Positions 15,323-51,932 of a DNA stretch of 64,000 nt are shown in pieces. The DNA lies in assembly GCA_040389365.1 (NCBI GenBank), contig JAZKAB010000009.1:44816-108815 (forward strand), given 5' to 3'. The DNA is from Patescibacteria group bacterium (GTDB taxonomy: Bacteria; Patescibacteriota; Minisyncoccia; Phycocordibacterales; UBA9973). A program made the translations under genes and the position numbers. Every line of letters begins with the position of its first letter. The first letter of the stretch is position 1. Below the pieces are notes generated by a model. The model did no database searches. It saw nothing but the letters and a program-made list of their open reading frames with translations, and was not told where the DNA came from.

Positions 15323-15671
15323 ATTGGAATAGGAAGCATCTTTATTGCTGTATAAAGTGCGCTAGGGAGTATGTATAAGAAATTATATTAACGTCGCACA
15401 ATTAAGCCTTATGCGACAAGCTTTTTAATACAATCCACACAATCCACAGCCTATATATGCCTATCTATAAATATTATAAAAATAATATATATGAGATATT
15501 CTTGTGGAAAACTTTATACAGATCGTTAATATCATCGGATTTTGGCATCTATTTTTCTTCGTACTTTTGCTGGGAACAATCCTAGTTGCACTTTTCTACA
15601 TCGCGCTCTCATGGATGGCTTACGGTATCGCTCGCGCTTGGCGCATCGGTATCAAAGGGTCACGCTAAAAC

Positions 15672-16064
15672 GTGCGTCCCATCCCTGAAAAACTAAAAAA
15701 GGAAATGGCCAATGACCCGTACTACGGACAATGCTGCCGCTCTGCCACTGGAGAGTGCAACGGACGCATTACCTGGGAGCACGCGATCATCTACGCCGGA
15801 CGACAGCTCAACGAGAAGTGGGCTATCATTCCTCTTTGCGCCTACCATCATTCCGTTGACCAGCACCAGGACGGCGACGGCCTCAATAAGGAGCTCAACA
15901 TCGCCATTGCCCTCAATCGCGCTACTAATGCGGAGCTTTTCGCCATTTCGAAAGCGACCGACTATATGCGCATGCGCTCGAACCTCAACCTAAAGTATTC
16001 TTTGGGTCTTTCGACGCGACCGCCTACTCCATTGCCAGTCGATCCTTATGAGATCGAGCTATGA
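15672..16064 (+). CDS. HNH endonuclease
   Basis: The product reads CCRSATGECNGRITWEHAIIYAGRQLNEKWAIIPLCAYHH, an HNH motif with Cys and His zinc ligands. HNH nucleases commonly sit next to terminase modules in phages. Confidence 0.7.
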   Translation: MRPIPEKLKKEMANDPYYGQCCRSATGECNGRITWEHAIIYAGRQLNEKWAIIPLCAYHHSVDQHQDGDGLNKELNIAIALNRATNAELFAISKATDYMRMRSNLNLKYSLGLSTRPPTPLPVDPYEIEL

Positions 16065-16396
16065 GAAAGAAGGCTGACATACAGCTGGACCTCGACCAGA
16101 CGATCCGCGAGCGCGATCAGGCAATAAAAGCATTGGGAGACAGCCAGAAGCTGCTCGAGCAGTGCAAGGGAGACGTAATAAGCTTCCGAAACCATCTCGA
16201 GTTCATCGGCAACATGGCCTTCGGTCCCAACTGGATACAGGAGCACTCGATATTCGAGCTCTCAGAAAAGGTGAGGGAAATAATATTCCACCACAACCGC
16301 CTCGAGGGAGGCAGGGACGAAATGGTAAGGCTCTTCAAGCAGTACCACCCTACAGAAAATTTAGCAGCCAAGAAAAAACCACATGCAAAACCCTGA
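16061..16396 (+). CDS. hypothetical phage early protein
   Basis: A 111-aa ORF whose start is coupled to the upstream stop (ATGA). Confidence 0.35.
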   Translation: MRKKADIQLDLDQTIRERDQAIKALGDSQKLLEQCKGDVISFRNHLEFIGNMAFGPNWIQEHSIFELSEKVREIIFHHNRLEGGRDEMVRLFKQYHPTENLAAKKKPHAKP

Positions 16397-16739
16397 AATA
16401 CAAGACATACCGAGAAGCGTCCTCAACCGCTACCTCTCGATGGAAGCCGAATGGATAGACAAGATGTTTGCCGAGCACTGGCCCTCGATATTCTCATGGT
16501 ACGCAAGATCGGCAAACGCGCGGCTGTCAAAGGGTAAAAGGCAGTGGCTCTTCGGAAGAATGCTCACGTTTCTATTCGCCAAGCTCTCCGGACTCACCGT
16601 CCACCGCAACAAGAACATGGAGATGGTGAAGCGCAACGGATTCAGAAACGAGAACGCAATCATTACGAAAAGCGTAACGGTAACTATTAGAAAGCACGAC
16701 AAAGAAGTCGCTAAGGCAGAGTTTCAACTATATGGGTAA
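16383..16739 (+). CDS. hypothetical phage protein
   Basis: A 118-aa ORF in a tightly packed same-strand array. Confidence 0.35.
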   Translation: MQNPEIQDIPRSVLNRYLSMEAEWIDKMFAEHWPSIFSWYARSANARLSKGKRQWLFGRMLTFLFAKLSGLTVHRNKNMEMVKRNGFRNENAIITKSVTVTIRKHDKEVAKAEFQLYG

Positions 16740-16932
16740 AGGACTAGAACGAACAGAAATACTAAGAAAGCCGTGCCCCCAATGCAAGGGCCACGGATAT
16801 GTGACAGGACAGAACGGCGTAGAGTCATTCTGCGAATACTGCATGGGGTCGGGAACACTGGAAAAGGAAGTGCCGTACAAGTTCGATGGCGAAAGGTCAG
16901 CCGAAGAGGTCAAGGAGATCTGGGAGGAATAG
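16732..16932 (+). CDS. small DnaJ-type zinc-finger protein (2x CxxCxGxG)
   Basis: It carries CPQCKGHG and CEYCMGSG, two canonical CxxCxGxG repeats. Confidence 0.4.
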   Translation: MGKGLERTEILRKPCPQCKGHGYVTGQNGVESFCEYCMGSGTLEKEVPYKFDGERSAEEVKEIWEE

Positions 16933-17107
16933 GAAGAGAATCCTTACCCCCAACATCCCGCCCGGCATAGATCCGGACGACTACTGCTCGCGCTGCCACT
17001 ATCCCATTGAGGGAATGAGGTTCAGAGACCTCTCAGCCGTGCGGTCCATACACCTCTGCCTGTACATGTGCGCATACTGCCAAGACCAGGAAAATAAATC
17101 CGTTTAA
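16886..17107 (+). CDS. zinc-ribbon small protein, hypothetical
   Basis: The product contains CSRCHY...CAYCQ. It overlaps the upstream ORF by 47 nt, so its start is uncertain. Confidence 0.25.
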   Translation: MAKGQPKRSRRSGRNRKRILTPNIPPGIDPDDYCSRCHYPIEGMRFRDLSAVRSIHLCLYMCAYCQDQENKSV

Positions 17108-17625
17108 TGCCATTTATTATGAGAAAAGGTAAAGAAAAGGAACTCGACTATATTCCCGAAACATGCACCTGCTGCTCTCAGACCACCACCTACGCGCTCA
17201 CTCTCGACCGCGGATCGGTGGAGATACTGAAAAAGCTCGCAAGGTATATCGGGAGAAAGGGAGAGAACGTCGTATGTCCCCGAAAGGAAAAGGAATGCGG
17301 CCTCACCCAGAACGAGATTTGCAATCTCATACGCCCGCGGTCCCACGGCCTGATCGCTCCATACAAGGATCTGCCCGGACACTTCGTACTCACGAGAAAG
17401 GGCGCACAATTCCTTCACGGAAAAGAAATTCCCAAAACAGCCATACGCAGCAAGGTAGAAAACCGAACGCTCGGATACTGGAAGGAGGAAGAAGACAAGT
17501 GCACCATAGCGGACTTCGACAACGGGTCCACGTATTGGGAAGGAATGCAGTACGACATTGTCAACGAAATAGTGGTCCCGTTCGCGGTCCCGTCGTCTAC
17601 CCAGCCAACCTTATTCGCAATATGA
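17107..17625 (+). CDS. hypothetical phage protein (Cys-rich N-terminus)
   Basis: A 172-aa product with diverse composition. The overlapping alternative frame is Arg/His-rich and low-complexity. Confidence 0.35.
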   Translation: MPFIMRKGKEKELDYIPETCTCCSQTTTYALTLDRGSVEILKKLARYIGRKGENVVCPRKEKECGLTQNEICNLIRPRSHGLIAPYKDLPGHFVLTRKGAQFLHGKEIPKTAIRSKVENRTLGYWKEEEDKCTIADFDNGSTYWEGMQYDIVNEIVVPFAVPSSTQPTLFAI

Positions 17626-18134
17626 AATATTATTCAAACAAGCCAAAGACAAGAATCATAGTGCTCTTCGATGACGGCCTCCTCGAGCACTACCACTCAA
17701 TTGCCGCAAAGGACATGCCGTCGTTTGACGTCCTATCCACCCAGTTCGTGAAGATGCCCCAGGACAAGCCCCGCATCCCGAGCAGCCCGAGAGAGGGAAC
17801 GAATACGGAGATAGTGATACGCGCCGCGCTGCTCGGAAAGCTCTCAAACGAGATCCATCAGGAAACCGGCGTGCCTATCACTTCCGTCTATACCATCATG
17901 TCCAACGCGAGAAAGGCGGGACTCATCCCGAAAGACCTGCCTGCCTCAGTGGAGAGCGAGGAAACGATCGCCGAAGCCCTCAAGGAGGAAATGGTGATCG
18001 ACCGAATCAGGGAGTTATGGGTTGATACCGACATGGATACCCGCGAAGTGTGCGAGGAGCTCGGCATATCGCTTGCCTACTTTAACAGCCTAATTGTGGA
18101 GAACAACATCTGCAAGACAATCAGTCAATTATGA
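17622..18134 (+). CDS. DNA-binding protein with two helix-turn-helix-like segments
   Basis: The start MKYYSNKP is coupled by ATGA to the upstream stop. The two HTH-like segments are IVIRAALLGKLSNEIHQETGVPITSVYTIMSNARKAG and TREVCEELGISLAYFNSLI. Confidence 0.4.
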   Translation: MKYYSNKPKTRIIVLFDDGLLEHYHSIAAKDMPSFDVLSTQFVKMPQDKPRIPSSPREGTNTEIVIRAALLGKLSNEIHQETGVPITSVYTIMSNARKAGLIPKDLPASVESEETIAEALKEEMVIDRIRELWVDTDMDTREVCEELGISLAYFNSLIVENNICKTISQL

Positions 18135-18433
18135 AAAAACTGCATTGGATGTGCGAAAGATTCCATTCCACTGATTTAGCTGGTGCGCCGTGCCCGAAGT
18201 GCGCTAATTTCAAATGCGGTAAGAGCTATTCTGAAAAGCTAAGGGAACAAGTCGATGCGATCCCCAGAGAAATGAAGCAGGCGTTGCTGGATAACGTATG
18301 GTCAGGGATGAAGCTTGGCGAAGCTGCAGTAAAGGCCGGATTCAAAGAAGACGATACTCCTATATACGCTCAGATAATGTCTGACAACATTGAAAACAAT
18401 AACTATTACTCGCTAAGAAAACAGGTTGCATAA
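18131..18433 (+). CDS. hypothetical zinc-ribbon/HTH small protein
   Basis: It has a CPKCANFKC motif followed by an HTH-like stretch (KQALLDNVWSGMKLGEAAVKAGF). Confidence 0.35.
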   Translation: MKKLHWMCERFHSTDLAGAPCPKCANFKCGKSYSEKLREQVDAIPREMKQALLDNVWSGMKLGEAAVKAGFKEDDTPIYAQIMSDNIENNNYYSLRKQVA

Positions 18434-18728
18434 AATGCCAAAACTAACTGACGTCCAAAACACGATACTCAAAGCATTCTTCGATCTTCAAATGACCGAT
18501 GAAGGGTATTTCAACGACGACGAAACGCCGTTGATGCTTTACAGCAGGCTTGAAGAAAAGACCGGCATAAAAAAAGCCTATCTTCAAATCGAGGTAAGGG
18601 AGCTGCGCAATATGGGCATCCTATGGCTTGCCCAGGCTGTAGACCAGGACTATGTCCCAAGCGGCAGTGGATGGTGCCTTACTGATCCTAAAGGAGTCGA
18701 TATTGTCAGAGAATTATTTTTCACATAA
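18426..18728 (+). CDS. hypothetical phage protein
   Basis: A 100-aa ORF with coupled start and stop. Confidence 0.35.
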   Translation: MHKMPKLTDVQNTILKAFFDLQMTDEGYFNDDETPLMLYSRLEEKTGIKKAYLQIEVRELRNMGILWLAQAVDQDYVPSGSGWCLTDPKGVDIVRELFFT

Positions 18729-18730
18729 AT

Positions 18731-19339
18731 ATGGACGAACACGTATCCAACTGCTGCAAGGCTGCAATAAAGAATGTACAGGTCCCGGGCGGCAACTTCA
18801 TGTCCATCTGCAAGCAGTGCGAGCAGGAGTGCGACCTTATCCCTGCAGAGCAGGAGCCGGACGATACTGACTGCGGTAACAAGGACTTCCGAGTTATCTG
18901 CCGCCAGCCGTTCTGCAAGAGCTGCAAGCCGAAAGCTCCGAGAAGAATTGAAGACCTTGGCGAAACCATAACCCCTTCGAACATAGTGGGAGTATTCACT
19001 GGAGCTATTCAAAAGATCAACGAGCACAACGTATTTGACCGCATGGTCCCAGCAAGCCAGCTGAGAGAAAAGCCCATAGACCTCATGTTTGTAGTAGGAT
19101 GGCTGCTTTCTGACGATACTGGCACTTCAAGCAAGGCGTTGTGCCGCCACATGCTCGGAATAAAGGGCGATCATTGCGCCCCAAGCGACCAGGGAGACAG
19201 GGGTAGGTGCATAAGGCTTCTGAAAATGGTCCCGCAGTGGTTTGACCGCCTCAACGAGATGTCAATGTACCCGGACTGGAGAGAGCAGGTAATGCTGATC
19301 CAGGGAGAGATGAATATTATTAAGGTTCCACTAGTTTAA
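18731..19339 (+). CDS. cysteine-rich hypothetical protein
   Basis: It has more than 12 Cys residues in multiple CxxC pairs (CKQCEQEC, CKSCKPK). Confidence 0.35.
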   Translation: MDEHVSNCCKAAIKNVQVPGGNFMSICKQCEQECDLIPAEQEPDDTDCGNKDFRVICRQPFCKSCKPKAPRRIEDLGETITPSNIVGVFTGAIQKINEHNVFDRMVPASQLREKPIDLMFVVGWLLSDDTGTSSKALCRHMLGIKGDHCAPSDQGDRGRCIRLLKMVPQWFDRLNEMSMYPDWREQVMLIQGEMNIIKVPLV

Positions 19340-19346
19340 ATTATTT

Positions 19347-19634
19347 ATGAAAGTAGACTATTCTCCGCGAAGAAGCGGCAAAACAACACGACTCATAGAA
19401 TATATGAGAGCAACGCCAGGAGCTGTAATGCTCACGTTTAACTACAATATGGCAATGATTCTTAAGGGCGAGTACCCGGATCTTGCCGACAGGATAGTTG
19501 ACTGGAAGAGCTATACCCCGTTTATCAACAGTTCGGTAAGGCCGATTAAGGAAGTGGTGATAGACAATGCCGACCTTGTGATCAGCCAGCTTTTCAAGCT
19601 ACCAGTTACCAGAATTAGCATGAGCGAGGAATAG
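19347..19634 (+). CDS. hypothetical phage protein
   Basis: A 95-aa ORF. Confidence 0.3.
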   Translation: MKVDYSPRRSGKTTRLIEYMRATPGAVMLTFNYNMAMILKGEYPDLADRIVDWKSYTPFINSSVRPIKEVVIDNADLVISQLFKLPVTRISMSEE

Positions 19635-19635
19635 T

Positions 19636-20097
19636 ATGGAAACAAAATACTACCTCACATATGACGATTCTCTGCTAGTAGTGGTCGATGGAACCATAGC
19701 CGTATTGCCGCCCCTCACTTTCAGGGAGGTCCCAGAAAGCTTTATAAGGGAAATTCCGCACCTTTCCCAAGTCCAAGTGATTGAAAAGGTCACTGATCCC
19801 AAATACAAGATTCTTGCCGTAGGAGTTTCTGACGTTCCTCCGAAGGGACGAGGCCGTCCAAAGAAAGTGGTCCCAGAGGCCGCTGACAAGGGCAGGGTCG
19901 AAGTTAAGCAGAAAGTGTCCTTCGCGAAGCGCGAGGAGCTCGTAAGAGCCTATGGGCGCACTGTGGTAAACAAGGTAATAGACATGGCTCTGGTAGGCGA
20001 GGAAGAGCAGACGATTGCCGACGACAGCGACGTTAACCTTAAGGTAAAGCACGTTCGCATCATCAAGGATCAGCTAGGGATGGAGCTGGAGAAGTAG
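19636..20097 (+). CDS. hypothetical protein with an AT-hook-like motif (PKGRGRPKK)
   Basis: A 153-aa product carrying a GRGRPKK AT-hook motif. Confidence 0.35.
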   Translation: METKYYLTYDDSLLVVVDGTIAVLPPLTFREVPESFIREIPHLSQVQVIEKVTDPKYKILAVGVSDVPPKGRGRPKKVVPEAADKGRVEVKQKVSFAKREELVRAYGRTVVNKVIDMALVGEEEQTIADDSDVNLKVKHVRIIKDQLGMELEK

Positions 20098-20098
20098 G

Positions 20099-20293
20099 AT
20101 GGAAGAAGGTAAAGATTTTATAAATACCAGAGGTAAGACCATCGAGCAGTTAGATGAGGAGTGGAAAGCCATGGGAAAGCCACCGCTTGCATTCATTGAT
20201 GACATTGAGGGAAGGCTATATCTATCCAAAATGCTTCCATCTATGCCTGGAGAGAAAAATAAGAGCCATATACCATGGCTAAAAGGAAAATAA
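20099..20293 (+). CDS. hypothetical small protein
   Basis: A 64-aa ORF. Confidence 0.25.
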   Translation: MEEGKDFINTRGKTIEQLDEEWKAMGKPPLAFIDDIEGRLYLSKMLPSMPGEKNKSHIPWLKGK

Positions 20294-20322
20294 TCAATTA
20301 TCAGAGCAATAGAGATAACATT

Positions 20323-20604
20323 ATGAACAAAGAACCAAAAAACAATTTCATGTGCGAGATGTGTGCAAAGAAAATATCTTCGTTTGAAGCCTTTGAAAGG
20401 GGAGGTTATATCTACTGCACCGAATGTGTAAATAAATTGGAACAGAAAGAAGCTCAAAAAAGACAGCCAATGGTCATTCAGTTCGGAATATTCCCCAAGT
20501 GGTGGAAGTTCCAGTCCCAGACCATCTATAACACCTCATACATATGGAAAAGGGTGGGATGGCTAGGTATTTCTATTGCGTGGGTAGACAAATATTTGCA
20601 ATAA
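20323..20604 (+). CDS. zinc-ribbon small protein
   Basis: The product contains CEMCAKK...CTECVNK. The ORF is open from 20275, and the start at MNKEPK was chosen to avoid overlap. Confidence 0.3.
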   Translation: MNKEPKNNFMCEMCAKKISSFEAFERGGYIYCTECVNKLEQKEAQKRQPMVIQFGIFPKWWKFQSQTIYNTSYIWKRVGWLGISIAWVDKYLQ

Positions 20605-20613
20605 ATTTCCCAA

Positions 20614-20865
20614 ATGAAGCAAGAAACATACAGAAGTAATGGTTATCGACAGGTCCTGGTATGCAGATCTAAAGTCTTCTATCGGACAAAGGCACTCGCA
20701 TGGGATAAGTCACTGTTCTTTTTCAGGCAGTTCGGCGAATATGAGGTCCCATACAGGTGCAAGCACTGTTCCCGGTATCATCTTTCAAAAAAATGGAACG
20801 AAGAACAACCTTCACTAGAGTTTATAGAGGGATTCAATAAGTGGTTTGGCCGGGAAGTTCTGTAG
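20614..20865 (+). CDS. hypothetical small protein
   Basis: An 83-aa ORF containing a CKHCSRYH motif. Confidence 0.3.
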   Translation: MKQETYRSNGYRQVLVCRSKVFYRTKALAWDKSLFFFRQFGEYEVPYRCKHCSRYHLSKKWNEEQPSLEFIEGFNKWFGREVL

Positions 20866-20918: not shown

Positions 20919-21443
20919 ATGGCAGCTAACAAAACCTCTCCAAAGATCCCCAAGGAGAAGACACTAAAAAATATCAACCATGAGCTTTTCTGCATGCTCT
21001 ATGCTGGCGGCGCAAACCCTGACTTCTTTGGCAACGCATCGAAATCATACCTTGCCGCCTTCAAATACGACGAGCAGATCAACAAGCTCGAAGAGGAGCT
21101 GAAAACCATTCCCTATAGCAAGGACAAGGAGCGAAAAGAGAAGCAGTCTGCCATCCTCAAGGTGAACAATTCAGCCAGAGTCCTTGGAAATAGGCTTTTA
21201 ACAAAGGTAGACATAAAGGCAAGAGTGGCAGTGCTTTACAAGGCGCTATATACGCACGATGCAGCCGATCAGTCTCTTGCATATGCAATGCGCCAGCGCA
21301 AGGATATAGCCTCTGCAGTAAGCGCCGTGAAGGAATACAACCGCGTTACCAAGCGCGTTGAGGAAAAGGTAGAGATCACCAACAAGGTATACCGCTGGGC
21401 AACTACAGAAGAGGAAGCGAAGACAGCCGCAAACGGCGGCTAA
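20919..21443 (+). CDS. terminase small subunit (Terminase_2-like)
   Basis: The N-terminus ELFCMLYAGGANPDFFGNASKSYLAAFKYDE matches the F-C..Y...GN...AY..AGY pattern of phage TerS. It lies directly upstream of the large terminase gene. Confidence 0.55.
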   Translation: MAANKTSPKIPKEKTLKNINHELFCMLYAGGANPDFFGNASKSYLAAFKYDEQINKLEEELKTIPYSKDKERKEKQSAILKVNNSARVLGNRLLTKVDIKARVAVLYKALYTHDAADQSLAYAMRQRKDIASAVSAVKEYNRVTKRVEEKVEITNKVYRWATTEEEAKTAANGG

Positions 21444-21675: not shown

Positions 21676-22065
21676 ATGCTAAAGGTTTCAAAGGAAATGC
21701 ATCCAATATATTACGAGTGCAAGCGACGCTTCGGAGTGAGCTGGGACGGCGGCGTATGCTGCGTATATGGCGACACTGCATACTGCAAGTACGACCTTCG
21801 ACCTGACGTTATCGCCCATGAGTCTGTTCACGTGCGCCAGCAGAGCGAAATGGGCCCTATGGAATGGTGGAAGCGGTACTTTGCGGACAAGAAGTTCCGA
21901 CTGGAGCAGGAGATCGAGGCATACAAGGAGCAAATGAAGTTTGTCCGTGAGAACTGCAGTAGGGACTTCAAGCGCGACATACTGAGAAAGTGCGCCCATG
22001 ACCTTGCGGGTCCGATGTACGGAAACATGATCACCTTATCAGAAGCATTCTCGATACTGGAATGA
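21676..22065 (+). CDS. small HExxH-motif protein (putative minimal metallopeptidase), hypothetical
   Basis: It has an AHESVHVRQ (HExxH) motif. The RBS is GAGGGGG. Its stop overlaps the terL start. Confidence 0.35.
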   Translation: MLKVSKEMHPIYYECKRRFGVSWDGGVCCVYGDTAYCKYDLRPDVIAHESVHVRQQSEMGPMEWWKRYFADKKFRLEQEIEAYKEQMKFVRENCSRDFKRDILRKCAHDLAGPMYGNMITLSEAFSILE

Positions 22066-23486
22066 TCAACGAGGCCATCATCCCCTATAAGCCCCGAAAC
22101 TGGGCTCTAAAGTTCCATAACACGCTTGTCCGATGGATCGTGCTCATCATCCACCGCCGAGGCGGTAAGACGACTGCAGCGCTTAATCACCTGGTACGCG
22201 ACGCGCTCAACCATCCAAAGACGCGCTATGCCTATATCGCTCCTACCCACAAGCAGGCAAAGCGAATCGTATGGGGCATGGTGAAGGAATACACCGCGCC
22301 CATCGACGGCATCAGGTACAACGAGGGCGAGCTGCTCGTTAAGTTCAAGAACGGATCGGAGCTCATGGTAGTCGGATCGGACAATCCGGACTCATTGCGC
22401 GGTATTGCGCTATGGGGCTGCTTTCTCGACGAGTATCCCTTGCAGTCTCCATTGGTGTTTACGGAGATCATTACCAAATGTCTTGCCGACCACTTGGGCT
22501 ACTGTATCTTCGGTGGGACTCCGAAGGGCAAGGGACACTTCTTCCGCATCTATCAGGTCGCTCAGGATCACCCAGAGTGGTGCCTTGTGTACAGAACCAT
22601 TGATGACTCATTGAAATACGAGGAGGGCGAGACCATTACGCGCCTTACTCAGGCATTGAAGGATGACCGAGAGCTCGTGAGAACAGGGCTTATGACGCAG
22701 GACGAGTTCGATCAGGAGTGGTACAACTCGTTCGAAGCTGCCGTTAAGGGCGCCGTATACCGCGCAGAGCTTGCAAAGGCCCGCGAAGAGGAGCGCATTA
22801 CCAAGTTCGTTGCCCATGATCCGCACTTGCTGACTCATACCGTATGGGACTTGGGGATAAACAAGGGGAACAGCATGTCTATCGGCTGGTACCAGAAGTA
22901 CGGCAACGAGGTCCGCATGATCGACTATTACGAGAACATAGGCCAGGGATTCGCACACTACATCAAGATAGTTAAGGAAAAGCCGTATATCTACGGCAAG
23001 CACTTCGCCCCCCATGATATCAAGGTGAGAGAGCTCGGCACAGGAGTAACCCGCTATGATACTGCTGAGAAGCTGGGGCTGACGTTCGAGCTGGATGCTG
23101 ACGGTAAGTCCGCAGTGCCGAGAGTCTCGATTGATGACGGCATAGACAAGGCGCGAGCGATGTTCAACCGAATATTCATTTGTGCCAAGAAGTGCGAGCA
23201 GTTTCTGGACTTCATCGGCATGTACCACTACAAGTTTGACGAGAAGAAGGGAATATTCACGAAGGAGCCGTACCATGATTTCAGTTCCAATGGCGCAGAC
23301 CAGTTCCGCTATGCCGCTTTGTGCGAAGACCAGATGGTAAACGAGATGGCCGTAGTCGCTCCTACTCCAACGCCCGAAGTCTCAGTCAAGGACGAGTTTG
23401 TCGGACAGGAAGGATACAATGATGGAGACAGGCATCCTATGTTCCAGGGTGTGGATATCGGCATGATGGGGCAGCCTAAACCTTAA
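22062..23486 (+). CDS. terminase large subunit
   Basis: It has a Walker A-like motif (HRRGGKTTAAL) in an N-terminal ATPase domain and a C-terminal nuclease domain. The 474-aa length is typical of TerL. Confidence 0.85.
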   Translation: MINEAIIPYKPRNWALKFHNTLVRWIVLIIHRRGGKTTAALNHLVRDALNHPKTRYAYIAPTHKQAKRIVWGMVKEYTAPIDGIRYNEGELLVKFKNGSELMVVGSDNPDSLRGIALWGCFLDEYPLQSPLVFTEIITKCLADHLGYCIFGGTPKGKGHFFRIYQVAQDHPEWCLVYRTIDDSLKYEEGETITRLTQALKDDRELVRTGLMTQDEFDQEWYNSFEAAVKGAVYRAELAKAREEERITKFVAHDPHLLTHTVWDLGINKGNSMSIGWYQKYGNEVRMIDYYENIGQGFAHYIKIVKEKPYIYGKHFAPHDIKVRELGTGVTRYDTAEKLGLTFELDADGKSAVPRVSIDDGIDKARAMFNRIFICAKKCEQFLDFIGMYHYKFDEKKGIFTKEPYHDFSSNGADQFRYAALCEDQMVNEMAVVAPTPTPEVSVKDEFVGQEGYNDGDRHPMFQGVDIGMMGQPKP

Positions 23487-26837: not shown

Positions 26838-27102
26838 CACTTTCAAAAATTGAAAATCTCTCCAACCGACTATCGCCATCTGGTGGTATCGACTTTGCTT
26901 TTTGCACTAGTTAAAGGTTCTGGAGAGATCCTTGTGCGAACTCAGAAAGCAAAATCGATATCGTCAGAAGTGATGATCTCGCTTTTTAGTTTTGAGTGTC
27001 TAAAAGGCTTAAAAAACAAAACACCAATTGAGGCTGGTTGCGCCCACTATTAACAGTAAATGCGCCCCCGAAGGAGATTACGGGTTACGAAATCCTACAA
27101 AC

Positions 27103-32985: not shown

Positions 32986-33001
32986 AACAATAATAAAAAA
33001 T

Positions 33002-38299: not shown

Positions 38300-38336
38300 T
38301 CTAAATTTTAAAAGTAGCAAGTTATAAAATATAAGT

Positions 38337-47510: not shown

Positions 47511-47672
47511 ATGACCCTAAAGACACCAGTAAAAGAAATATCGGAAAAGCTTGGCGTCAGCACCCAGGCTGTTTACCTGTGGAAGGCCGGCAAGTCTTTG
47601 CCTTCTTCCAAGAACCTGCTAAAGCTTGCGGAAATGGAAGGAACGACAGTGGACAGCCTTCTAAATAGCTAG
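47511..47672 (+). CDS. Cro/XRE-like helix-turn-helix regulator (53 aa)
   Basis: MTLKTPVKEISEKLGVSTQAVYLWKAGKSLPSSKNLLKLAEMEG is a classic Cro/CI-type HTH. It is not in the ORF track because it is shorter than 60 aa. Confidence 0.5.
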   Translation: MTLKTPVKEISEKLGVSTQAVYLWKAGKSLPSSKNLLKLAEMEGTTVDSLLNS

Positions 47673-47682
47673 CCTCTCAAGT

Positions 47683-49143
47683 GTGTACACTTTGTACATG
47701 CTTATATTAGACATTTTCGATCGCTTCTTCGGAAGAAATGGCCAGCAGGTTATAGACCCCGAGGCAGTATCAGTAAAAAAGTACCCGCTCAGCGCCCATC
47801 TCAACGATCCCGACTCCCGCGACGTTTCCTATCCGTTCGTTGCCGGATCGATCGCGCCTTCGTTTCCAGCGCAATACAATACGGACGTATCTCACATGAC
47901 CCGTCTATGGCAGGGATATTTGGGTACCTGCGTGGCGCACTGCTACGAATTCATCAAGCGGCTTCTTGATTTCAATGAGACTGGTGCCGAGACAATATAT
48001 TCCCGCCGCTTTCTCTATGTTCTAACCCGTCGCTTCACGAATGCGGTGAATACCGACTCTGAGCAGAACCAGGGGCTTTCTCCTCGTGATGCTGCAAAGA
48101 TACTCGCTACGGCAGGAATTGCTAAGGATAGCGGCCAGGATGACAACAGTCTTCCTCATAGTGCTTACGTGAACAGTTATGTTGTTACTGATGCCATGAG
48201 AAGCGAGGCGGCACTTTACCGATCCGGAGGATTCGCGTTTCCTATCATCGACTCCAGCGTCCTAAAGAAGGCGATCATGCAGAACAAGGCGGTAGGAGTG
48301 ACTATCGGGATAGACTGGTCCAAAGTCTCGCCTGACGGCACCGTGCGCCCTCCTGCGGTCCTTGCAGGCTTCCATGAGGTTGCCCTGTACGGATGGGAGA
48401 CTGTCAGCGGAAAGGAGCGCTTCATCGCCCGAAACTGGTGGCCAGAATTGCCAAACCTTTACATAAACAGCGAAGACATTGAAAAGGTAGTATACGACTC
48501 GATCGTCTTTACGGACATTCCGAACGATCTTCTTTTGCGAGCAAAGCAGCGGCAGTACGTGTTCCTCACCGATCTCAAGCAGGGAATAGTGAGCGACGCG
48601 GTAGTCCAGCTGCAGAAGTGCCTGAAAGAATACGGCCTTTTCTCGGCGGCATTCAGCAGGTCTTTCGGCCCCGCTACGCTGCAGGCAGTGAAGGATTTCC
48701 AGAAACTGAAAGGCCTGACAGCTGACGGCGCATTAGGGCCGAAGAGTCGCGCCGCTCTCAACGAGTCGGCAGGGAATACGCTTTCAAAGTCAAGGCTCGA
48801 CTTGTGGTGCGAGGCGGCGAAGAATATGGACGGGGCAAAGTCCTATCTCAACAATCCTGGCAATATCCGCTGCAACGCGATAATGAACAAGAACGCGATA
48901 AGCGTAAGCAACAACGGCTTCTGCATGTTCCCTACATACGAGGCAGGGTACAAGGCCCTGCGCGATATGTTTATCCGAGCAGCTACCATAGGCACTGCAA
49001 ACTATCAGCCGACAATGACCCTGTATCAGTTCTATGCGAAATATGCTCCTTCTAACGACGGCAACGATCCGAACCATTATGCCGAATATGTGGCGACCCA
49101 TATTGGAGTATCACCTAGCACGATGATCAAGGATCTGGTATAA
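47683..49143 (+). CDS. putative endolysin: papain-like cysteine peptidase + PG_binding_1 peptidoglycan-binding domain + unknown C-terminal domain
   Basis: WQGYLGTCVAHCYEF (Q...C) and GFHEVALYGWE (His strand) match the papain pattern. DAVVQLQKCLKEYGLFSAAFSRSFGPATLQAVKDFQKLKGLTADGALGPKSRAAL is a PG_binding_1 repeat. Confidence 0.55.
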   Translation: MYTLYMLILDIFDRFFGRNGQQVIDPEAVSVKKYPLSAHLNDPDSRDVSYPFVAGSIAPSFPAQYNTDVSHMTRLWQGYLGTCVAHCYEFIKRLLDFNETGAETIYSRRFLYVLTRRFTNAVNTDSEQNQGLSPRDAAKILATAGIAKDSGQDDNSLPHSAYVNSYVVTDAMRSEAALYRSGGFAFPIIDSSVLKKAIMQNKAVGVTIGIDWSKVSPDGTVRPPAVLAGFHEVALYGWETVSGKERFIARNWWPELPNLYINSEDIEKVVYDSIVFTDIPNDLLLRAKQRQYVFLTDLKQGIVSDAVVQLQKCLKEYGLFSAAFSRSFGPATLQAVKDFQKLKGLTADGALGPKSRAALNESAGNTLSKSRLDLWCEAAKNMDGAKSYLNNPGNIRCNAIMNKNAISVSNNGFCMFPTYEAGYKALRDMFIRAATIGTANYQPTMTLYQFYAKYAPSNDGNDPNHYAEYVATHIGVSPSTMIKDLV

Positions 49144-49334
49144 GATCCATAATACCCAGATAGTATATAAAAAAGCCTTATTTTCTGGTGACTTATCCAC
49201 AGGTATTGCACATTTCTGCAAAATAAGTAGTATACTGTGTGTATTAAAAGTAAGGTGTCCGCCCATAGAAAAAGCCCTCAAACGCGTTAATGAGAGCTTA
49301 ATCTAGGTTTAATGCAAAATAAAGAAAGTCTAGC

Positions 49335-49365: not shown

Positions 49366-49388
49366 CCACTTGGAACCTCTGAATGTTA

Positions 49389-49654: not shown

Positions 49655-49815
49655 TGTAGTGAGAAACAAAAATGTCCTGCACTACGTTCTATAGGTTGCG
49701 GCGGCCAAACAAAGAATTTGTTTGAACATCTACAATTGTAGGTATTCAAGTGATGCGAATCACCTTTCAACCTACAGAACGTAAAGCAGGACATGCTGCT
49801 TTGTTTGACTCTCTC
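49655..49815. promoter_or_regulatory. extended imperfect palindromic element downstream of the integrase gene (candidate att / recombinase-binding region or ncRNA)
   Basis: Long inverted repeats are tcctgcactacgttctataggttg (49674) against caacctacagaacgtaaagcagga (49767), and gagaaacaaaaatgtcctgc against gcaggacatgctgctttgtttgac. Central mini-palindromes are ctacaattgtag and gtgatgcgaatcac. Confidence 0.35.
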
Positions 49816-49884
49816 GTGCATCACTACGAGTTAATTTTTTAAAACTGATCCCATTATAGCATATTTTTATGTAAAAGTTAAATC

Positions 49885-50715
49885 CTAAATGTATTTTTTA
49901 GCCAGTCGCTTGAACTCGTCCGGCAGTAGGGATGTATACATTTGAGTCGATATGATGGTCCGGTGCCTCAGCACTTCCTTGATGTCATTGAGGTGTGCCC
50001 CGTCCTTGAGCATCTTGTGCGCTTTCCCGTGCCTGAACATGTGCGGATGGACATTGTGACCTATTCCGGCATTCGTCGCTACTGAGGCGACCCAGCGCTC
50101 TACAGAGCGGGTAGTGATGCGCTCGCCCTTGCGGTTCGTGAACAGCGCGGGGTGCTCGTCAAGGCAAAGCTTGGTCCCTATGTACCGCATCAAGAGCTTG
50201 TGAGATTTTCCGCTCCACATGATCCAATCCATATGCCTGTTTTTCTTGGTGACGATCTTGGCGAAGTGGCGAGTGTTCTTTATATCGAGCACGTCCAGGT
50301 CGCACAATTCAGATACTCGTATGCCCGTACTCCACAATAGGTTGATGACAAGCTTCTTCTGCAGGGAATAGTACTCCCATTCGCTCAGCGACTTGTCCAT
50401 CATCCTGAACTCCTGCTCCGTAATGAAAGAGACGGGCTCAGGGGTAAATTTTGGCCGCTTGATCAGCTTCGGGTTTACCTCGGTGCGGTAGTATGAAAAG
50501 AAGTCTTTCAGTATGTTTACATAATAGACTATGGTTCTCGGCTTGAACGGGAGGGAAGCGATGAAGCTGGTAACGTCGCTTTGCGCTATCTTTGTCATCT
50601 CCTTTGAGCAGTGCTTCTCGAATGCTGCCAAGCACGGCGCATAGGAAATAGAGGCGGGAACCGCGTAGCTCCTTTTCCAATCCAGATATTCAGTTATTGC
50701 TCTTGATATATGCAT
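49885..50715 (-). CDS. tyrosine recombinase / phage integrase (XerD-like)
   Basis: It has the C-terminal catalytic motifs HMFRHGKAHKML...LRHRTIISTQMYT (R-H-R-Y). The ORF is open to 50814, and the start at MHISRAITEY is preferred. Confidence 0.75.
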   Translation of the reverse strand: MHISRAITEYLDWKRSYAVPASISYAPCLAAFEKHCSKEMTKIAQSDVTSFIASLPFKPRTIVYYVNILKDFFSYYRTEVNPKLIKRPKFTPEPVSFITEQEFRMMDKSLSEWEYYSLQKKLVINLLWSTGIRVSELCDLDVLDIKNTRHFAKIVTKKNRHMDWIMWSGKSHKLLMRYIGTKLCLDEHPALFTNRKGERITTRSVERWVASVATNAGIGHNVHPHMFRHGKAHKMLKDGAHLNDIKEVLRHRTIISTQMYTSLLPDEFKRLAKKYI

Positions 50716-50943
50716 AAAACACAAAACCGCGGGGAAAAACCGCGGTTCGTGCTGTTGCAACATAGCCCAAAAGAGGGCCACGATCAGTATAGCAAAATCC
50801 ATTGTTTTCCCCATACCCTTGCGGGCACGTCCTTTGCAGGCAACGGCGTTATTCGGTTATGTTCGCATATTAACCTTATATTAGATTATGTCAAGTAGGG
50901 AAGCATCTTAATACTTTTATGCTCAAGTTCTATACTTTTAAAC

Positions 50944-51156
50944 ATGAACACATATTCAGCAACTCAACAGTCAAACCTGGTGGCGATCGCGGGAGTAATA
51001 GCCCTCATTCTCAACCACTTCCATATCAACATCGGCAGCGATGACATCATGCTCCTGCTCGGCTCAGGCCTTGCGGTAATCGGCGTCGTTACTAACTGGG
51101 TGCACAGATACCAGAAAGGCGACCTTACTCTCGGAGGATTTAGAAAAGGGTACTAG
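50944..51156 (+). CDS. small membrane protein
   Basis: A 70-aa product with two TM helices. Confidence 0.35.
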   Translation: MNTYSATQQSNLVAIAGVIALILNHFHINIGSDDIMLLLGSGLAVIGVVTNWVHRYQKGDLTLGGFRKGY

Positions 51157-51164
51157 TCACTTAC

Positions 51165-51234
51165 TGCGGTTTAGTATAATGGTAGTACGCCGGGCTCATA
51201 TCCCGGAAGCGCTGTTCGATTCAGTCATCCGCAA
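51165..51234 (+). tRNA. tRNA-Met (anticodon CAU)-like, with two stem mismatches and a short variable region
   Basis: The fold has D-loop AATGGTA, anticodon stem CCGGG/CCCGG with three G:C pairs, loop CTCATAT and T-loop TTCGATT. Mismatches occur at 6:67 (T-T) and 49:65 (C-C), and the length is 70 nt. Confidence 0.5.
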
Positions 51235-51240
51235 CAATAA

Positions 51241-51268
51241 GAAAGCCCCTTTATAAAGGGGCTTTTGC
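51241..51268 (+). terminator. hairpin terminator after the tRNA (aaagccccttt-ata-aaggggcttt)
   Basis: An 11-bp stem is followed by ttgcc. Confidence 0.5.
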
Positions 51269-51403
51269 CTAGGCGGCTTGCGTTCCATCGATCGTTCGAT
51301 GAACTGTCTTTAATTTCTTTTTGTTGCTTGTGATCCTTACGAACCAGATGAAGATGGTGAAGGCTCCGAGAATGATGATTCCGATGATTACATATGGTCC
51401 CAT
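51269..51403 (-). CDS. 44-aa single-TM peptide, hypothetical
   Basis: MGPYVIIGIIILGAFTIFIWFVRITSNKKKLKTVHRTIDGTQAA. A hairpin follows its stop. Confidence 0.25.
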   Translation of the reverse strand: MGPYVIIGIIILGAFTIFIWFVRITSNKKKLKTVHRTIDGTQAA

Positions 51404-51932
51404 AGCTGACTGTTTTGTTAAGTCTACATCTTAAGAGCAGGAGTTATTAACATGTTCTTGCAAGTAATACTTGCACGCAATTTCAGGTGGTATATACTTA
51501 AGGAGGTTCGATAAAAACTTTATAGAAAGTCATACAAAAATCTTCCTCCAGTACGGGAAACGGCCGGGGATAAGTGGTGTATAAATCGGGATCTGAATGT
51601 TAACAACTTTTCGACGATAAAAAGTTACGGGGAGTTGTTATATTTTTATCCACAGTAACGTCGCACAATATATCTTTCGCGTCGTCTATATTCATTTTCA
51701 GCTATACTCTGTGTATGGCGCTGAATATCTACGCTGCAAATACTGGCATGTCGCATTCAATCGGTAGTCTCTAAACTCTTGGCTGTCATATCTAAAAGAT
51801 ATTGAACTTAGCATAAACGGCTGAGACGTCAGCTATGATTATGCGGAGCTGGAGGCTACCGAGTGAATGCAGACATATTGTCTTCTTTAAGATAATTCAG
51901 GGGAGACGCACTTCCCTTTCCTGTATAGTATT

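What the first reader, a model, noticed from the sequence alone, without database searches (positions are those of the whole stretch)
15330..51670. Integrated prophage with a complete morphogenesis module but no recognisable replication or CI-type repressor genes
The element encodes an HNH nuclease, about 15 small Zn-ribbon and HTH proteins, TerS, TerL, a putative portal, scaffold, putative major capsid protein, tailspike, fibres, a lysin, a Cro-like protein, an integrase and a tRNA-like gene. It has no polymerase, helicase, primase, recombinase or Rep gene. It has no long HTH plus peptidase repressor. Nearly every gene is on one strand. Either replication relies on host functions plus the small early proteins, or this is a streamlined CPR-type temperate phage whose regulators are unrecognisable.
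Basis: partly seen in the sequence, partly recalled or inferred. Interest (0 to 1): 0.6.

Follow-up and report, generated by a model that had tools for sequence, protein, structure and literature searches.

The report
CPR prophage borrowing host DnaA origin
This is a real, precisely bounded 36-kb prophage in a tiny "candidate phyla radiation" bacterium that carries no DNA-replication genes of its own. It and its free-living relatives instead carry clusters of binding sites for the host's replication initiator DnaA, which suggests they copy themselves entirely with host machinery.

Summary
A 36,267-bp element is bounded by an exact 14-bp direct repeat (15389-15402 and 51656-51669). It sits in a Candidatus Nomurabacteria/Paceibacterota (CPR) genome. 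Four related genomes keep the uninterrupted attachment site and carry no prophage genes. TerS, TerL, an SU10-type portal and adaptor, the major capsid protein, a lysin, a tyrosine integrase and a true tRNA-Met are confirmed.

No polymerase, helicase, primase, Rep or initiator was found by Pfam, PHROGs, PDB sequence search or two structure predictions. None was found in three related viral contigs either.

Two new findings:
- The relatives carry dense clusters of perfect DnaA boxes with oriC-like "box, spacer, DnaA-trio, AT-rich" modules at the start of the early genes. One relative also encodes a protein consisting only of DnaA domain IV. The prophage has a weaker version that straddles attP, so integration splits it.
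- A repressor candidate is recognisable. It is a 53-aa Cro/CI-type HTH (Pfam HTH_3). A perfect palindrome, TGCAAG-N5-CTTGCA, occurs three times, each overlapping a promoter -35. One of these promoters reads across attP into the early genes.

Best reading: a temperate CPR podophage that depends on host DnaA and the host replisome. The mechanism is inferred, not shown. Interest is moderate.

The parts
15389..15402 (+). attL core (14-bp direct repeat TAACGTCGCACAAT)
   Evidence: The 14-mer has exactly two copies in the window, with 0 expected. The left flank matches the attB of relatives.
15431..15448 (+). Tandem DnaA-box-like repeats, CAATCCACA twice. Each has 2 mismatches to TTATCCACA with the TCCACA core intact. 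They point into the AT-rich stretch.
15449..15502 (.). AT-rich stretch (about 81% A+T), a candidate unwinding element
   Evidence: Sequence read. On the minus strand it holds 7 consecutive NTN (DnaA-trio-type) triplets starting 16 nt after the box at 15503-15511.
15503..15511 (-). DnaA box TTTTCCACA (1 mismatch), facing the AT-rich stretch
   Evidence: It is the only box in the whole window with at most 1 mismatch that is followed by at least 4 trio-type triplets.
15504..20865 (+). Early region of about 17 small ORFs (Zn-ribbon, HTH, wHTH, AT-hook). No recognisable replication enzyme.
15672..16064 (+). HNH-like protein, identified by motif only. Conserved in two relatives, where it lies near the terminase genes.
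   Evidence: There was no Pfam, PHROG or PDB hit.
18731..19339 (+). 202-aa protein with N-terminal Cys clusters and a conserved helical C-terminal domain of unknown function
19347..19634 (+). Stand-alone 95-aa P-loop mini-ATPase with a RecA1-like helicase-type fold
20919..21443 (+). Small terminase subunit
   Evidence: phrog_51, 6e-5. Homologues sit upstream of TerL in relatives.
22062..23486 (+). Large terminase subunit
   Evidence: phrog_2, 3e-32; PF03237, 6e-5.
23520..25535 (+). Portal protein (SU10 type)
   Evidence: PF23899, 1e-7, at 31.3 bits against a cut-off of 30. phrog_1216, 6e-9.
27028..28041 (+). Probable scaffolding protein: acidic, coiled-coil, directly upstream of the capsid gene
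   Evidence: Inferred from position and composition. Conserved in relatives. No family hit.
28085..29293 (+). Major capsid protein (distantly P22-coat-like)
   Evidence: phrog_267, 1e-25. tblastn hits to capsid and 'P22 coat' genes at 22-26% identity. 75-83% identical in relatives.
31021..34255 (+). Two large structural ORFs of 654 and 417 aa, possibly fibre or spike proteins
   Evidence: Only a weak tail-fibre PHROG hit, 2e-5, for 31021-32985. Otherwise no hits.
35684..36340 (+). Head-to-tail adaptor (SU10 type)
   Evidence: PF24175, 2.8e-6, at 28.3 bits against a cut-off of 27.
36344..41505 (+). Nozzle-like protein (651 aa), a 632-aa secreted or fibre-like protein, and a 421-aa protein. These are tail and ejection proteins by position.
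   Evidence: Inferred from the position after the adaptor. 51-64% identical homologues lie in the same order in L104. No family hits.
41511..46679 (+). 1722-aa polyvalent or ejection-type protein with an ADP-ribosyltransferase-like segment (aa 327-439)
   Evidence: PARP, 6.5e-5, and ART-PolyVal, 1.8e-3. Both are below the Pfam cut-offs. A 2171-aa counterpart exists in uvig124.
46685..47112 (-). Two small membrane proteins (62 and 78 aa) transcribed leftward from the switch region. GC is low.
   Evidence: Function unknown.
47126..47142 (.). Operator O1: TGCAAG-N5-CTTGCA, overlapping the -35 of the leftward promoter TTGCAA-16-TATTGT
   Evidence: One search gives 3 perfect copies in 64 kb, where about 0.004 are expected. 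The sequence was read.
47247..47263 (.). Operator O2, overlapping the -35 of the rightward promoter TTGCAA-16-TATACT (47259-47286)
47340..47507 (+). 55-aa zinc-ribbon protein, the first gene of the rightward switch operon
   Evidence: weak Zn-ribbon hits.
47511..47672 (+). 53-aa Cro/CI-type HTH protein, the candidate immunity repressor
   Evidence: PF01381 HTH_3, 1.5e-6, at 28.6 bits against a cut-off of 23. Phage_CI_repr, 1e-3. P22_Cro, 0.014.
47683..49143 (+). Lysin with a peptidoglycan-binding domain
   Evidence: PF01471, 4e-12. Several endolysin PHROGs.
49193..49201 (+). Perfect DnaA box TTATCCACA in non-coding DNA
   Evidence: It is one of only two perfect boxes in the 64-kb window.
49672..49794 (.). 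Long hairpin with 27-nt arms, downstream of the integrase. Function unknown.
   Evidence: Folding gives z = -7.9. No Rfam family.
49885..50814 (-). Tyrosine integrase
   Evidence: PF00589, 2.9e-26; phrog_1, 1e-26.
51165..51235 (+). tRNA-Met (CAT) carried by the phage
   Evidence: ARAGORN. Rfam tRNA at 51 bits. It lies inside the att-bounded element.
51459..51475 (.). Operator O3. It overlaps the -35 of the promoter-like site TTGCAC-16-TATACT (51471-51498), which reads rightward across attR, and across attP in the circular phage.
   Evidence: The sequence was read. The geometry is the same as at O2.
51646..51654 (+). Perfect DnaA box TTATCCACA, 1 nt from the attR core
51656..51669 (+). attR core (second copy of the 14-bp repeat)
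   Evidence: The right flank matches the attB of relatives.

Best explanation
This is an intact temperate podovirus-type phage of a Candidatus Nomurabacteria (CPR) bacterium. A tyrosine integrase inserted it at a conserved 14-bp intergenic site.

The phage encodes no replication enzymes or initiator. Its circular form carries, at the junction between the lysogeny/lysis end and the early genes, an oriC-like region. In order, this region holds an operator-controlled early promoter, a perfect DnaA box, the attP core, two tandem DnaA-box-like repeats, a 54-bp stretch of about 81% A+T, and an inward-facing DnaA box.

Host DnaA is proposed to bind there, open the AT-rich stretch and load the host helicase and replisome. 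Integration cuts this region in two at attP. That separates the early promoter and one DnaA box from the early genes and the rest of the origin.

The short Cro/CI-type HTH protein (47511-47672) is proposed to hold three promoters through the three identical palindromic operators.

Shown: the boundaries, the empty sites, the gene content, the motifs and their statistics, and the conservation of DnaA-box modules in relatives.

Inferred: DnaA binding, origin function, which protein binds the operators, and the consequences of splitting the region.
For: - Mobility. An exact 14-bp repeat bounds the element. Uninterrupted attB sites and no prophage genes are found in related genomes.
- No replication gene in relatives either. 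uvig124 has 35.5 of its 40.2 kb assembled. L063 and L039 were also read.
- DnaA boxes in the window. Only two perfect TTATCCACA sites exist in 64 kb, and both lie in prophage non-coding DNA. The densest TCCACA cluster of the circularised phage is 4 sites in 122 bp, exactly across attP. None of 500 shuffles reached this density.
- DnaA boxes in relatives. uvig124 has 4 perfect boxes within 130 bp in the non-coding region that precedes its early genes. L063 has 15 boxes, 7 of them perfect, within 550 bp.
- oriC-like modules in relatives. L063, the L039/L103 contig and uvig124 carry a box, a 2-3-nt spacer and then CTA ATA GTA ATA... This matches the published basal unwinding system layout: B. subtilis TTATCCACA AATCCACAG GCC CTA CTA TTA.. 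(PMC8287927 and its supplement).
- A phage-encoded DnaA domain. L063 encodes a 104-aa protein consisting only of DnaA domain IV, placed among the boxes (PF08299, 4e-12).
- Regulation. The 53-aa ORF hits HTH_3. There are three perfect palindromes against about 0.004 expected. Each overlaps a -35 with a 16-nt spacer and a TAT..T -10.
Against: - The prophage's own module is weak. It has one perfect box next to attP, two boxes with 2 mismatches and one with 1 mismatch. A trio-type run occurs only at the 16-nt limit of the published search rule, and in AT-rich DNA, where such runs are easy to get.
- The tandem CAATCCACA repeats beside the core could instead be binding sites for the integrase or an accessory protein.
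- DnaA-box clusters in phages can have non-replicative roles. The T5 injection-stop region is one example (bioRxiv 10.1101/866236).
- Only 2 of about 17 early proteins were examined by structure, so a novel initiator may be hidden among the wHTH and Zn-ribbon proteins.
- The host's DnaA-box consensus and its oriC could not be examined.
- No attP junction was found in IMG/VR, so there is no direct evidence that the prophage excises or replicates.
Confidence: 0.5

Rival explanations
1. A novel phage initiator exists but cannot be recognised. One or more of the small early DNA-binding proteins binds the origin and recruits the host helicase. Candidates are the wHTH protein 17107-17625, the double-HTH protein 17622-18134 and the 202-aa protein 18731-19339, perhaps together with the RecA1-like mini-ATPase 19347-19634. 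Under this reading the DnaA boxes are only auxiliary, as in P1, F or pSC101 replicons.
For: - The early region is packed with DNA-binding motifs that have no family assignment.
- The mini-ATPase has a helicase-type RecA1 fold and forms a conserved family.
- Homologues of the 18731 C-terminal domain sit in recombination/replication-type neighbourhoods, next to RecT and a PDDEXK-FtsK ATPase. Some are fused to a GKTT segment.
- That many iteron replicons combine DnaA boxes with their own Rep protein is general knowledge (reviewed in PMC4980987, listed).
Against: - No iteron array was found in the early region.
- Apart from the mini-ATPase, none of these proteins is conserved in the relatives that share the DnaA-box module.
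- All are at most 202 aa, which is shorter than typical initiators.
- The mini-ATPase lacks a second RecA domain.
Confidence: 0.27
2. The DnaA-box clusters are not origins. They could tie the early promoter to the host's DnaA-ATP status. They could titrate DnaA to block host initiation. Or they could hold the entering DNA end, as proposed for T5. Replication would then start elsewhere by an unknown route, for example primed by transcription or dependent on recombination.
For: - The boxes lie at or just downstream of the early promoter.
- L063 encodes a protein consisting only of DnaA domain IV. Such a protein can bind boxes but cannot form an unwinding filament, which fits competition or regulation.
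- There is a precedent: 8 conserved DnaA boxes in the T5 injection-stop region were judged unrelated to replication.
- Relatives carry RusA, which fits recombination-linked DNA metabolism.
Against: The layout of box, short spacer, GAT-type trios and AT-rich stretch in three relatives is the specific signature of an unwinding module, not merely of DnaA binding. In one relative two such modules converge on the same AT-rich stretch. No alternative origin or replication protein was found.
Confidence: 0.15
3. The element is a defective or satellite-like prophage that lost its replication module and can no longer multiply on its own.
For: It has no replication genes. Its DnaA-box module is degenerate compared with relatives. 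No attP junction was found in IMG/VR.
Against: - All large ORFs are intact, and the att repeats are identical.
- Free viral contigs of the same lineage have the same gene repertoire and also lack replication genes, so nothing has been lost relative to them.
- The full set of packaging, head, tail, lysis and integration genes is present.
Confidence: 0.06

Closest known systems
Bacterial chromosomal origin oriC with the basal unwinding system (DnaA boxes, spacer, DnaA-trios, AT-rich DNA; Richardson 2016 and Pelliciari 2021, PMC8287927)
   Same: The relatives L063, L103 and uvig124 carry one or two DnaA boxes, a 2-3-nt spacer, and at least 4-8 trio-type triplets beginning with the GAT complement, followed by AT-rich DNA. 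This closely parallels the B. subtilis element. In the window, inward-facing boxes flank an 81% A+T stretch.
   Different: The element lies on a phage genome with no dnaA or dnaN nearby. In the prophage the trios are poor and the boxes are degenerate. The attP core is embedded in the region. Function has not been tested.
Lambdoid and P22-like temperate phages (integrase, CI/Cro switch, O/P or gp18/gp12 replication genes)
   Same: It has a tyrosine integrase and att sites. It has a divergent promoter region with repeated palindromic operators and a Cro/CI-type HTH. The coat protein is distantly P22-like.
   Different: It has no initiator or helicase-loader genes. Its only HTH regulator is 53 aa and has no S24 peptidase domain. 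The switch module sits between the tail/ejection genes and the lysin, not beside the early genes.
Phage SU10 / Kuravirus-type podovirus virion proteins
   Same: The portal and adaptor match the Pfam families built on SU10, PF23899 and PF24175, just above their cut-offs. A large nozzle-like gene follows the adaptor.
   Different: There was no nucleotide or close protein similarity to any cultured phage. Kuraviruses are virulent and encode their own replication and transcription proteins (general knowledge).
T5-like phages' injection-stop region with 8 DnaA boxes (bioRxiv 10.1101/866236)
   Same: It is a conserved cluster of consensus and near-consensus DnaA boxes in non-coding DNA near the genome end that carries the first expressed genes.
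   Different: T5 encodes a full replication apparatus and its origins lie elsewhere. The T5 boxes come in pairs inside inverted repeats and have no trio or AT-rich unwinding layout.
Proviruses of Patescibacteria reported from metagenomes (for example Hainich groundwater, PMC12960796)
   Same: It is an integrated provirus in a Paceibacteria-class genome. Several related contigs come from the same kinds of groundwater and freshwater data sets.
   Different: Those surveys report prevalence (proviruses in 20% of Patescibacteria genomes). In the text searched, they do not report att sites, replication strategy or DnaA boxes.

Membership tests
Integrated temperate tailed phage (prophage) | Site-specific recombinase gene at one end | tested here: met
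   49885-50814(-) hits PF00589 at 2.9e-26 and phrog_1 at 1e-26.
Integrated temperate tailed phage (prophage) | Direct att repeats at both ends, and an uninterrupted site in relatives | tested here: met
   The 14-bp exact repeat has 0 expected by chance. Uninterrupted attB sites occur in L003, L004, L006 and L026, and no prophage genes are present there.
Integrated temperate tailed phage (prophage) | Complete packaging, head, tail and lysis gene set | tested here: met
   TerS, TerL, portal, capsid protein, adaptor and lysin are identified. The tail proteins are assigned by position only.
Integrated temperate tailed phage (prophage) | Excision or induction: a circular attP junction, or particles | tested here: inconclusive
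   The attP junction pattern is absent from IMG/VR.
Lambda-type CI repressor (HTH plus S24 autopeptidase) | N-terminal Cro/CI-type HTH | tested here: met
   47511-47672 hits PF01381 at 1.5e-6, above the cut-off. PF07022 Phage_CI_repr hits at 1e-3, below the cut-off.
Lambda-type CI repressor (HTH plus S24 autopeptidase) | C-terminal S24 (LexA-like) peptidase or dimerisation domain | tested here: not met
   The protein is only 53 aa. No S24 hit occurs anywhere in the element.
Lambda-type CI repressor (HTH plus S24 autopeptidase) | Repeated palindromic operators overlapping promoters | tested here: met
   Three perfect TGCAAG-N5-CTTGCA sites each overlap a -35. Which protein binds them is not known.
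DnaA-dependent origin with basal unwinding system (oriC type) | Cluster of DnaA boxes | tested here: met
   The window has 4 TCCACA-core boxes in 122 bp across attP, and 0 of 500 shuffles reach this density. Both perfect boxes of the window lie in prophage non-coding DNA. Relatives have 4-7 perfect boxes clustered.
DnaA-dependent origin with basal unwinding system (oriC type) | At least 3 DnaA-trios (NAN, ideally GAT) within 16 bp of a box, on the correct strand | tested here: inconclusive
   In the window this is met only at the limit: the box at 15503(-), a 16-nt spacer, then 7 triplets in AT-rich DNA. There are no trios after the tandem boxes. It is clearly met in the relatives L063, L103 and uvig124, with a 2-3-nt spacer and 4-8 triplets beginning with CTA, the complement of GAT. 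The rules come from PMC8287927.
DnaA-dependent origin with basal unwinding system (oriC type) | Adjacent AT-rich unwinding element | tested here: met
   15449-15502 is about 81% A+T, against about 50% for the element as a whole.
DnaA-dependent origin with basal unwinding system (oriC type) | DnaA binding, strand opening and helicase loading at the site | not testable with these tools
   This needs biochemistry or in-vivo origin mapping.
SU10/Kuravirus-like podovirus virion module | SU10-type portal and adaptor | tested here: met
   PF23899 scores 31.3 bits against a cut-off of 30. PF24175 scores 28.3 bits against a cut-off of 27.
SU10/Kuravirus-like podovirus virion module | Overall genome relatedness to kuraviruses, including their replication and transcription genes | tested here: not met
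   There were no matches to cultured kuraviruses. The capsid protein's best hits are P22-coat-like proteins at 22-26% identity. No replication genes are present.
Polyvalent protein with ADP-ribosyltransferase domain | ART catalytic domain above the family threshold | tested here: inconclusive
   PARP scores 23.0 bits against a cut-off of 26.7. ART-PolyVal scores 19.5 bits against a cut-off of 31.2.

The most novel reading that the evidence does not exclude
A lineage of CPR (Paceibacteria/Nomurabacteria) podophages has dispensed with every replication protein. It replicates from a phage-borne copy of the bacterial oriC unwinding module (DnaA boxes plus DnaA-trios), which the host's own DnaA fires. 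In the temperate member, attP is embedded inside this origin and early-promoter region. Integration therefore physically disconnects both the origin and the early promoter from the early genes, which gives a built-in off-switch that complements a minimal 53-aa repressor.
Probability: 0.3. Interest if true: 0.75.

Novelty: new variant of a known kind. Interest (0 to 1): 0.55.

Why it matters
Almost nothing is known about how phages of CPR/Patescibacteria work, because there are no cultured phage-host pairs for this class.

If these phages really replicate from an oriC-like module with host DnaA alone, they would be a rare example of a tailed dsDNA phage with no initiator of its own. It would show that genome streamlining reaches the viruses of streamlined hosts. 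It would also provide a small, portable origin that functions in CPR bacteria, which could be useful for building genetic tools for organisms that currently have none.

The attP-in-origin layout would be a simple physical mechanism for keeping a prophage silent.

If the DnaA boxes turn out to be regulatory instead, the finding reduces to an ordinary, poorly annotated prophage.

Tried and rejected
- Integration into the tRNA-Met gene: rejected. The tRNA lies inside the element, 420 bp from attR, and the att core is unrelated to it.
- Sequence search of the whole early region (a 2,145-aa concatenation) against the PDB found only a DnaJ-type zinc finger at E = 0.59. The same search for the structural proteins and for the 1722-aa protein found nothing.
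- The word-indexed protein search for the mini-ATPase and for the L063 DnaA-domain-IV protein returned only the query itself. I therefore could not reach host DnaA loci to compare the phage module with a CPR oriC.
- tblastn of early proteins against cultured phages returned only 'hypothetical protein' hits for 18731-19339 and none for the mini-ATPase.
- The idea that the mini-ATPase is a fragment of a helicase or terminase: rejected. Its 157 relatives are almost all stand-alone proteins of about 100 aa. It is not a full helicase, because it has only one RecA-like domain.
- The HNH label could not be verified. A 3-sequence profile against the PDB found nothing, and the second His of the motif is not conserved in uvig124.
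- The attP junction search in IMG/VR found no hit.
- I could not fetch the last 4.6 kb of uvig124. Its position corresponds to the nozzle and fibre genes.
- The more distant TerL relatives (about 43% identity: L052, L055, L057) proved to be high-GC phages of other hosts and were not pursued.
- Rfam found no family for the non-coding regions.
- GC skew is dominated by the one-strand gene orientation and did not help locate an origin.

Full report
**Observation**

The window contains a sharply bounded insertion. The 14-mer TAACGTCGCACAAT occurs exactly twice, at 15389-15402 and 51656-51669, with none expected by chance. Counting one core copy, the element is 36,267 bp.

To its left lie conserved host genes: a split transketolase, ribosomal proteins L25, L31, L9 and L27, RF1, tRNA-Ile, RsmI and a CAP-domain protein. 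A search with the 418-aa flank protein found 32 related loci in genomes named Candidatus Nomurabacteria, Paceibacterota, Parcubacteria and the like. The left flank is syntenic at 55-90% protein identity as far as the CAP-domain gene. None of these genomes carries any prophage gene.

Five of them contain the same 14-mer just after the CAP-domain gene. In four (L003, L004, L006, L026) the sequence continues as ..TTAACGTCGCACAATATATCTTTTACGAC... This matches the left flank of the window's attL and the right flank of its attR, so it is an uninterrupted attB. In L002 a different tyrosine integrase (27% identity) sits next to the same core, so the site is an integration hot spot. The protein collection gives the source as 'MAG... 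[Patescibacteria group bacterium]', on a contig of 113,115 bp.

**Gene content**

Profile searches confirm the following:
- TerS (phrog_51).
- TerL (phrog_2, 3e-32; PF03237).
- An SU10-type portal (PF23899) and adaptor (PF24175).
- The major capsid protein (phrog_267, 1e-25).
- A lysin with a peptidoglycan-binding domain.
- A tyrosine integrase (PF00589, 3e-26).
- A genuine tRNA-Met inside the element.

Other points on gene content:
- No tape-measure, tube or sheath gene was found. Together with the portal and adaptor type, this points to a short-tailed phage.
- The 1722-aa protein at the end of the tail block has a sub-threshold ADP-ribosyltransferase-like segment. By position it looks like an ejection or polyvalent protein.
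- The labels 'HNH', 'tailspike' and 'fibres' could not be verified.
- No cultured phage is close. The capsid protein's best hits are P22-coat-like genes at 22-26% identity.

**Search for replication genes**

- Every ORF of the element was scanned against Pfam and PHROGs. Small ORFs were joined with linkers and later scanned one by one at relaxed thresholds.
- The whole early region was searched against all PDB sequences.
- None of these searches found a polymerase, primase, helicase, Rep, replisome organiser, DnaC/DnaD-like loader, SSB, RecT/Erf or transposase.

Two early proteins were taken further:

The right flank of the element is a low-GC restriction-modification island, not a replication module. 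However, about 15 small early ORFs were not examined by structure.

**Relatives**

TerL, capsid and nozzle queries recovered related viral contigs:
- uvig124 (IMGVR_UViG_3300014205_000124, 40.2 kb): capsid protein 77% and TerL 57% identical.
- L060: capsid protein 83% identical.
- L063: TerL 59% identical.
- The L039/L103 contig: TerL 55% identical.
- L104: capsid protein 75% identical.

I assembled 35.5 kb of uvig124. Its gene order is a circular permutation of the prophage order. It has no integrase and no lysogeny block. It too has only small early genes, plus RusA, a peptide deformylase, an amidase and a holin-like gene. The 10 kb upstream of TerL in L063 and the 6.8 kb upstream in L039 encode methylases, HNH proteins, RusA, an Acb2/Tad1-type protein and a deformylase, but again no replication enzymes. 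The lack of replication genes is therefore a property of the lineage and not decay of this one prophage.

**DnaA boxes**

The window has only two perfect DnaA boxes (TTATCCACA). Both lie in non-coding prophage DNA: 49193-49201, and 51646-51654, which is one base from the attR core.

On the other side of the core, at attL, lie these features:
- Two tandem CAATCCACA repeats (15431-15448).
- A 54-bp stretch of about 81% A+T.
- An inward-facing TTTTCCACA (15503-15511, minus strand).

In the circularised phage these form the densest TCCACA cluster of the genome, 4 in 122 bp, a density reached by none of 500 shuffles.

The relatives show the same feature far more strongly:
- uvig124 has four perfect boxes within 130 bp in the non-coding region between its lysis genes and first early gene.
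- L063 has 15 boxes (7 perfect) within 550 bp.
- L063 also encodes, among those boxes, a 104-aa protein that matches only DnaA domain IV (PF08299, 4e-12).

The relatives carry the specific layout of the bacterial basal unwinding system. The B. subtilis element is TTATCCACA AATCCACAG GCC CTA CTA TTA CTT.. (supplement of PMC8287927). The phage elements are:
- L063: TTTTCCACA TATCCACAG GA CTA ATA GTA ATA ATA ATT CTT ATA.
- The L039/L103 contig: an almost identical element, plus a second, convergent one on the other strand.
- uvig124: TTTTCCACA GCA CTA ATA GTA ATA.

By the published search rules (box with at most 2 mismatches, spacer of at most 16 nt, at least 3 NAN trios), the window qualifies only at the limit. 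Its box at 15503 is followed, after 16 nt, by seven trio-type triplets inside AT-rich DNA. I rate that as inconclusive for the window and convincing for the relatives.

**Regulation**

It is a Pfam-level Cro/CI-type HTH: HTH_3 at 1.5e-6, above the cut-off, with weak hits to Phage_CI_repr and P22_Cro.

A perfect 17-bp palindrome, TGCAAG-N5-CTTGCA, occurs three times in the window and nowhere else. About 0.004 perfect copies are expected for 12 specified bases.
- Two copies lie in the 227-bp divergent intergenic region upstream of the HTH operon, as part of a 24-nt inverted repeat.
- The third lies at 51459-51475.
- In all three, the right half-site overlaps a -35-like TTGCAA or TTGCAC, followed after 16 nt by TATACT or TATTGT.
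- The third promoter reads rightward across attR. In the excised circle it would read across attP into the early genes.

So there is a recognisable, if minimal, switch. Which protein binds the operators is inferred, not shown.

**Proposed mechanism**

In the circular phage the order of features is:
1. Operator O3 with the early promoter.
2. A perfect DnaA box.
3. The attP core.
4. The tandem DnaA-box-like repeats.
5. The AT-rich stretch.
6. The inward-facing DnaA box.
7. The early genes.

I propose that host DnaA opens this region and the host replisome copies the phage. TerS and TerL then package the DNA. Integration at attP splits both the promoter-to-gene link and the box cluster. A strong host terminator at 15289-15328 insulates the early genes from upstream transcription. 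The short HTH protein keeps the three promoters in check. All steps beyond motif presence and conservation are inference. Confidence is about 0.5.

**Rival explanations**

- An unrecognised phage initiator among the small DNA-binding proteins, with the DnaA boxes as auxiliaries (0.27).
- The boxes are regulatory, titrate DnaA or act in DNA entry, as proposed for the T5 injection-stop region, with replication starting elsewhere (0.15).
- A defective element (0.06). This is unlikely because free relatives have the same repertoire and all ORFs are intact.

**Comparison and novelty**

Proviruses in Patescibacteria are known from surveys, which found them in 20% of genomes in Hainich groundwater (PMC12960796). 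The prophage as such is therefore a new member of a known kind.

My literature searches found no description of tailed phages that lack all replication genes yet carry oriC-type box-plus-trio modules, nor of an attP embedded in such a module. That absence is from a limited full-text library, not proof of novelty. I classify the finding as a new variant of a known kind, of moderate interest. It would be considerably more interesting if DnaA-driven replication is demonstrated.

**Limits**

- There was no access to reads, so excision and origin use are untested.
- The host's oriC and DnaA could not be retrieved.
- 4.6 kb of uvig124 was not fetched.
- Only two early proteins were modelled.
- Concatenating small ORFs for the profile scans slightly changes whole-sequence E-values.
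- The trio criterion is weak in AT-rich DNA.

Noticed in passing
window 51165-51235: The phage-borne tRNA-Met(CAT) has three consecutive G:C pairs closing the anticodon stem (CCGGG/CCCGG). This is the hallmark of initiator tRNAs. Its 1:72 pair is a weak T:A pair. It may be an initiator-type tRNA carried by the phage.
   Followed up: no
window 51900-55650: A low-GC (34-40%) island lies directly right of attR. It holds an Eco47II-type restriction enzyme (53582-54334, minus strand), a C5 cytosine methylase fused to a MerR-type HTH (52317-53576, minus strand), a Vsr mismatch endonuclease (54319-54819) and a SAM methyltransferase (54964-55641, minus strand). It is probably a separately acquired defence island.
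   Followed up: partly
L002 14050-15216 (Ca. Nomurabacteria RYN_399): A different tyrosine integrase (27% identical) lies next to the same 14-bp core in a related genome. The site after the CAP-domain gene is therefore an integration hot spot used by more than one element.
   Followed up: partly
uvig124 (assembled from L058, L035 and L059), about 8850-8870: This relative has no visible integrase. Yet within its DnaA-box region it contains GTCGCACAATATATCTT, which is 10 nt of the att core plus 7 nt of the host-side attB flank. It could be a relic attP, or the sequence could have another function shared by host and phage, for example as a promoter.
   Followed up: no
L063 1761-2075: A 104-aa phage protein consists only of DnaA domain IV (PF08299, 4e-12). 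Its own coding sequence and flanks hold 15 DnaA boxes. The same contig has an Acb2/Tad1 hairpin-domain protein, which is an anti-CBASS/Thoeris sponge family.
   Followed up: partly
window 18731-19634; alignment A3; L106 10001-10363: Some homologues of the C-terminal domain of 18731-19339 carry an N-terminal 'GKTT' P-loop-like segment. In the window the very next gene is the mini P-loop ATPase. This suggests a functional pair. In an unrelated phage contig the homologue sits beside RecT and a PDDEXK-FtsK ATPase.
   Followed up: partly
window 49672-49794: A 123-nt near-perfect long hairpin (27-nt arms with an inner palindrome) lies just downstream of the integrase gene. Its folding z-score is -7.9 and it has no Rfam family. 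On the minus strand a 51-aa Cys-rich ORF follows it (49389-49544).
   Followed up: partly
window 41511-46679: The 1722-aa tail-end protein has a sub-threshold PARP/ART-PolyVal segment (aa 327-439), long helical regions with hydrophobic stretches, and a C-terminal DH...N motif that resembles an HNH nuclease. The counterpart in uvig124 is 2171 aa.
   Followed up: partly
window 34776-35687 and 47683-49143: Both proteins show Cys...His motifs that suggest papain-like peptidases (for example GTCVAHC...GFHEV in the lysin N-terminus). The phage may therefore carry two cell-wall peptidases. No family hit supports this.
   Followed up: no
window 15389-15402 and the attB of L003, L004, L006 and L026: The conserved host attB, TTAACGTCGCACAATATATCTTTTACGACG, contains a short inverted repeat (CGTCG...CGACG). 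It is invariant across genomes whose flanks have diverged, so it probably has a host function of its own. That function is unknown.
   Followed up: no
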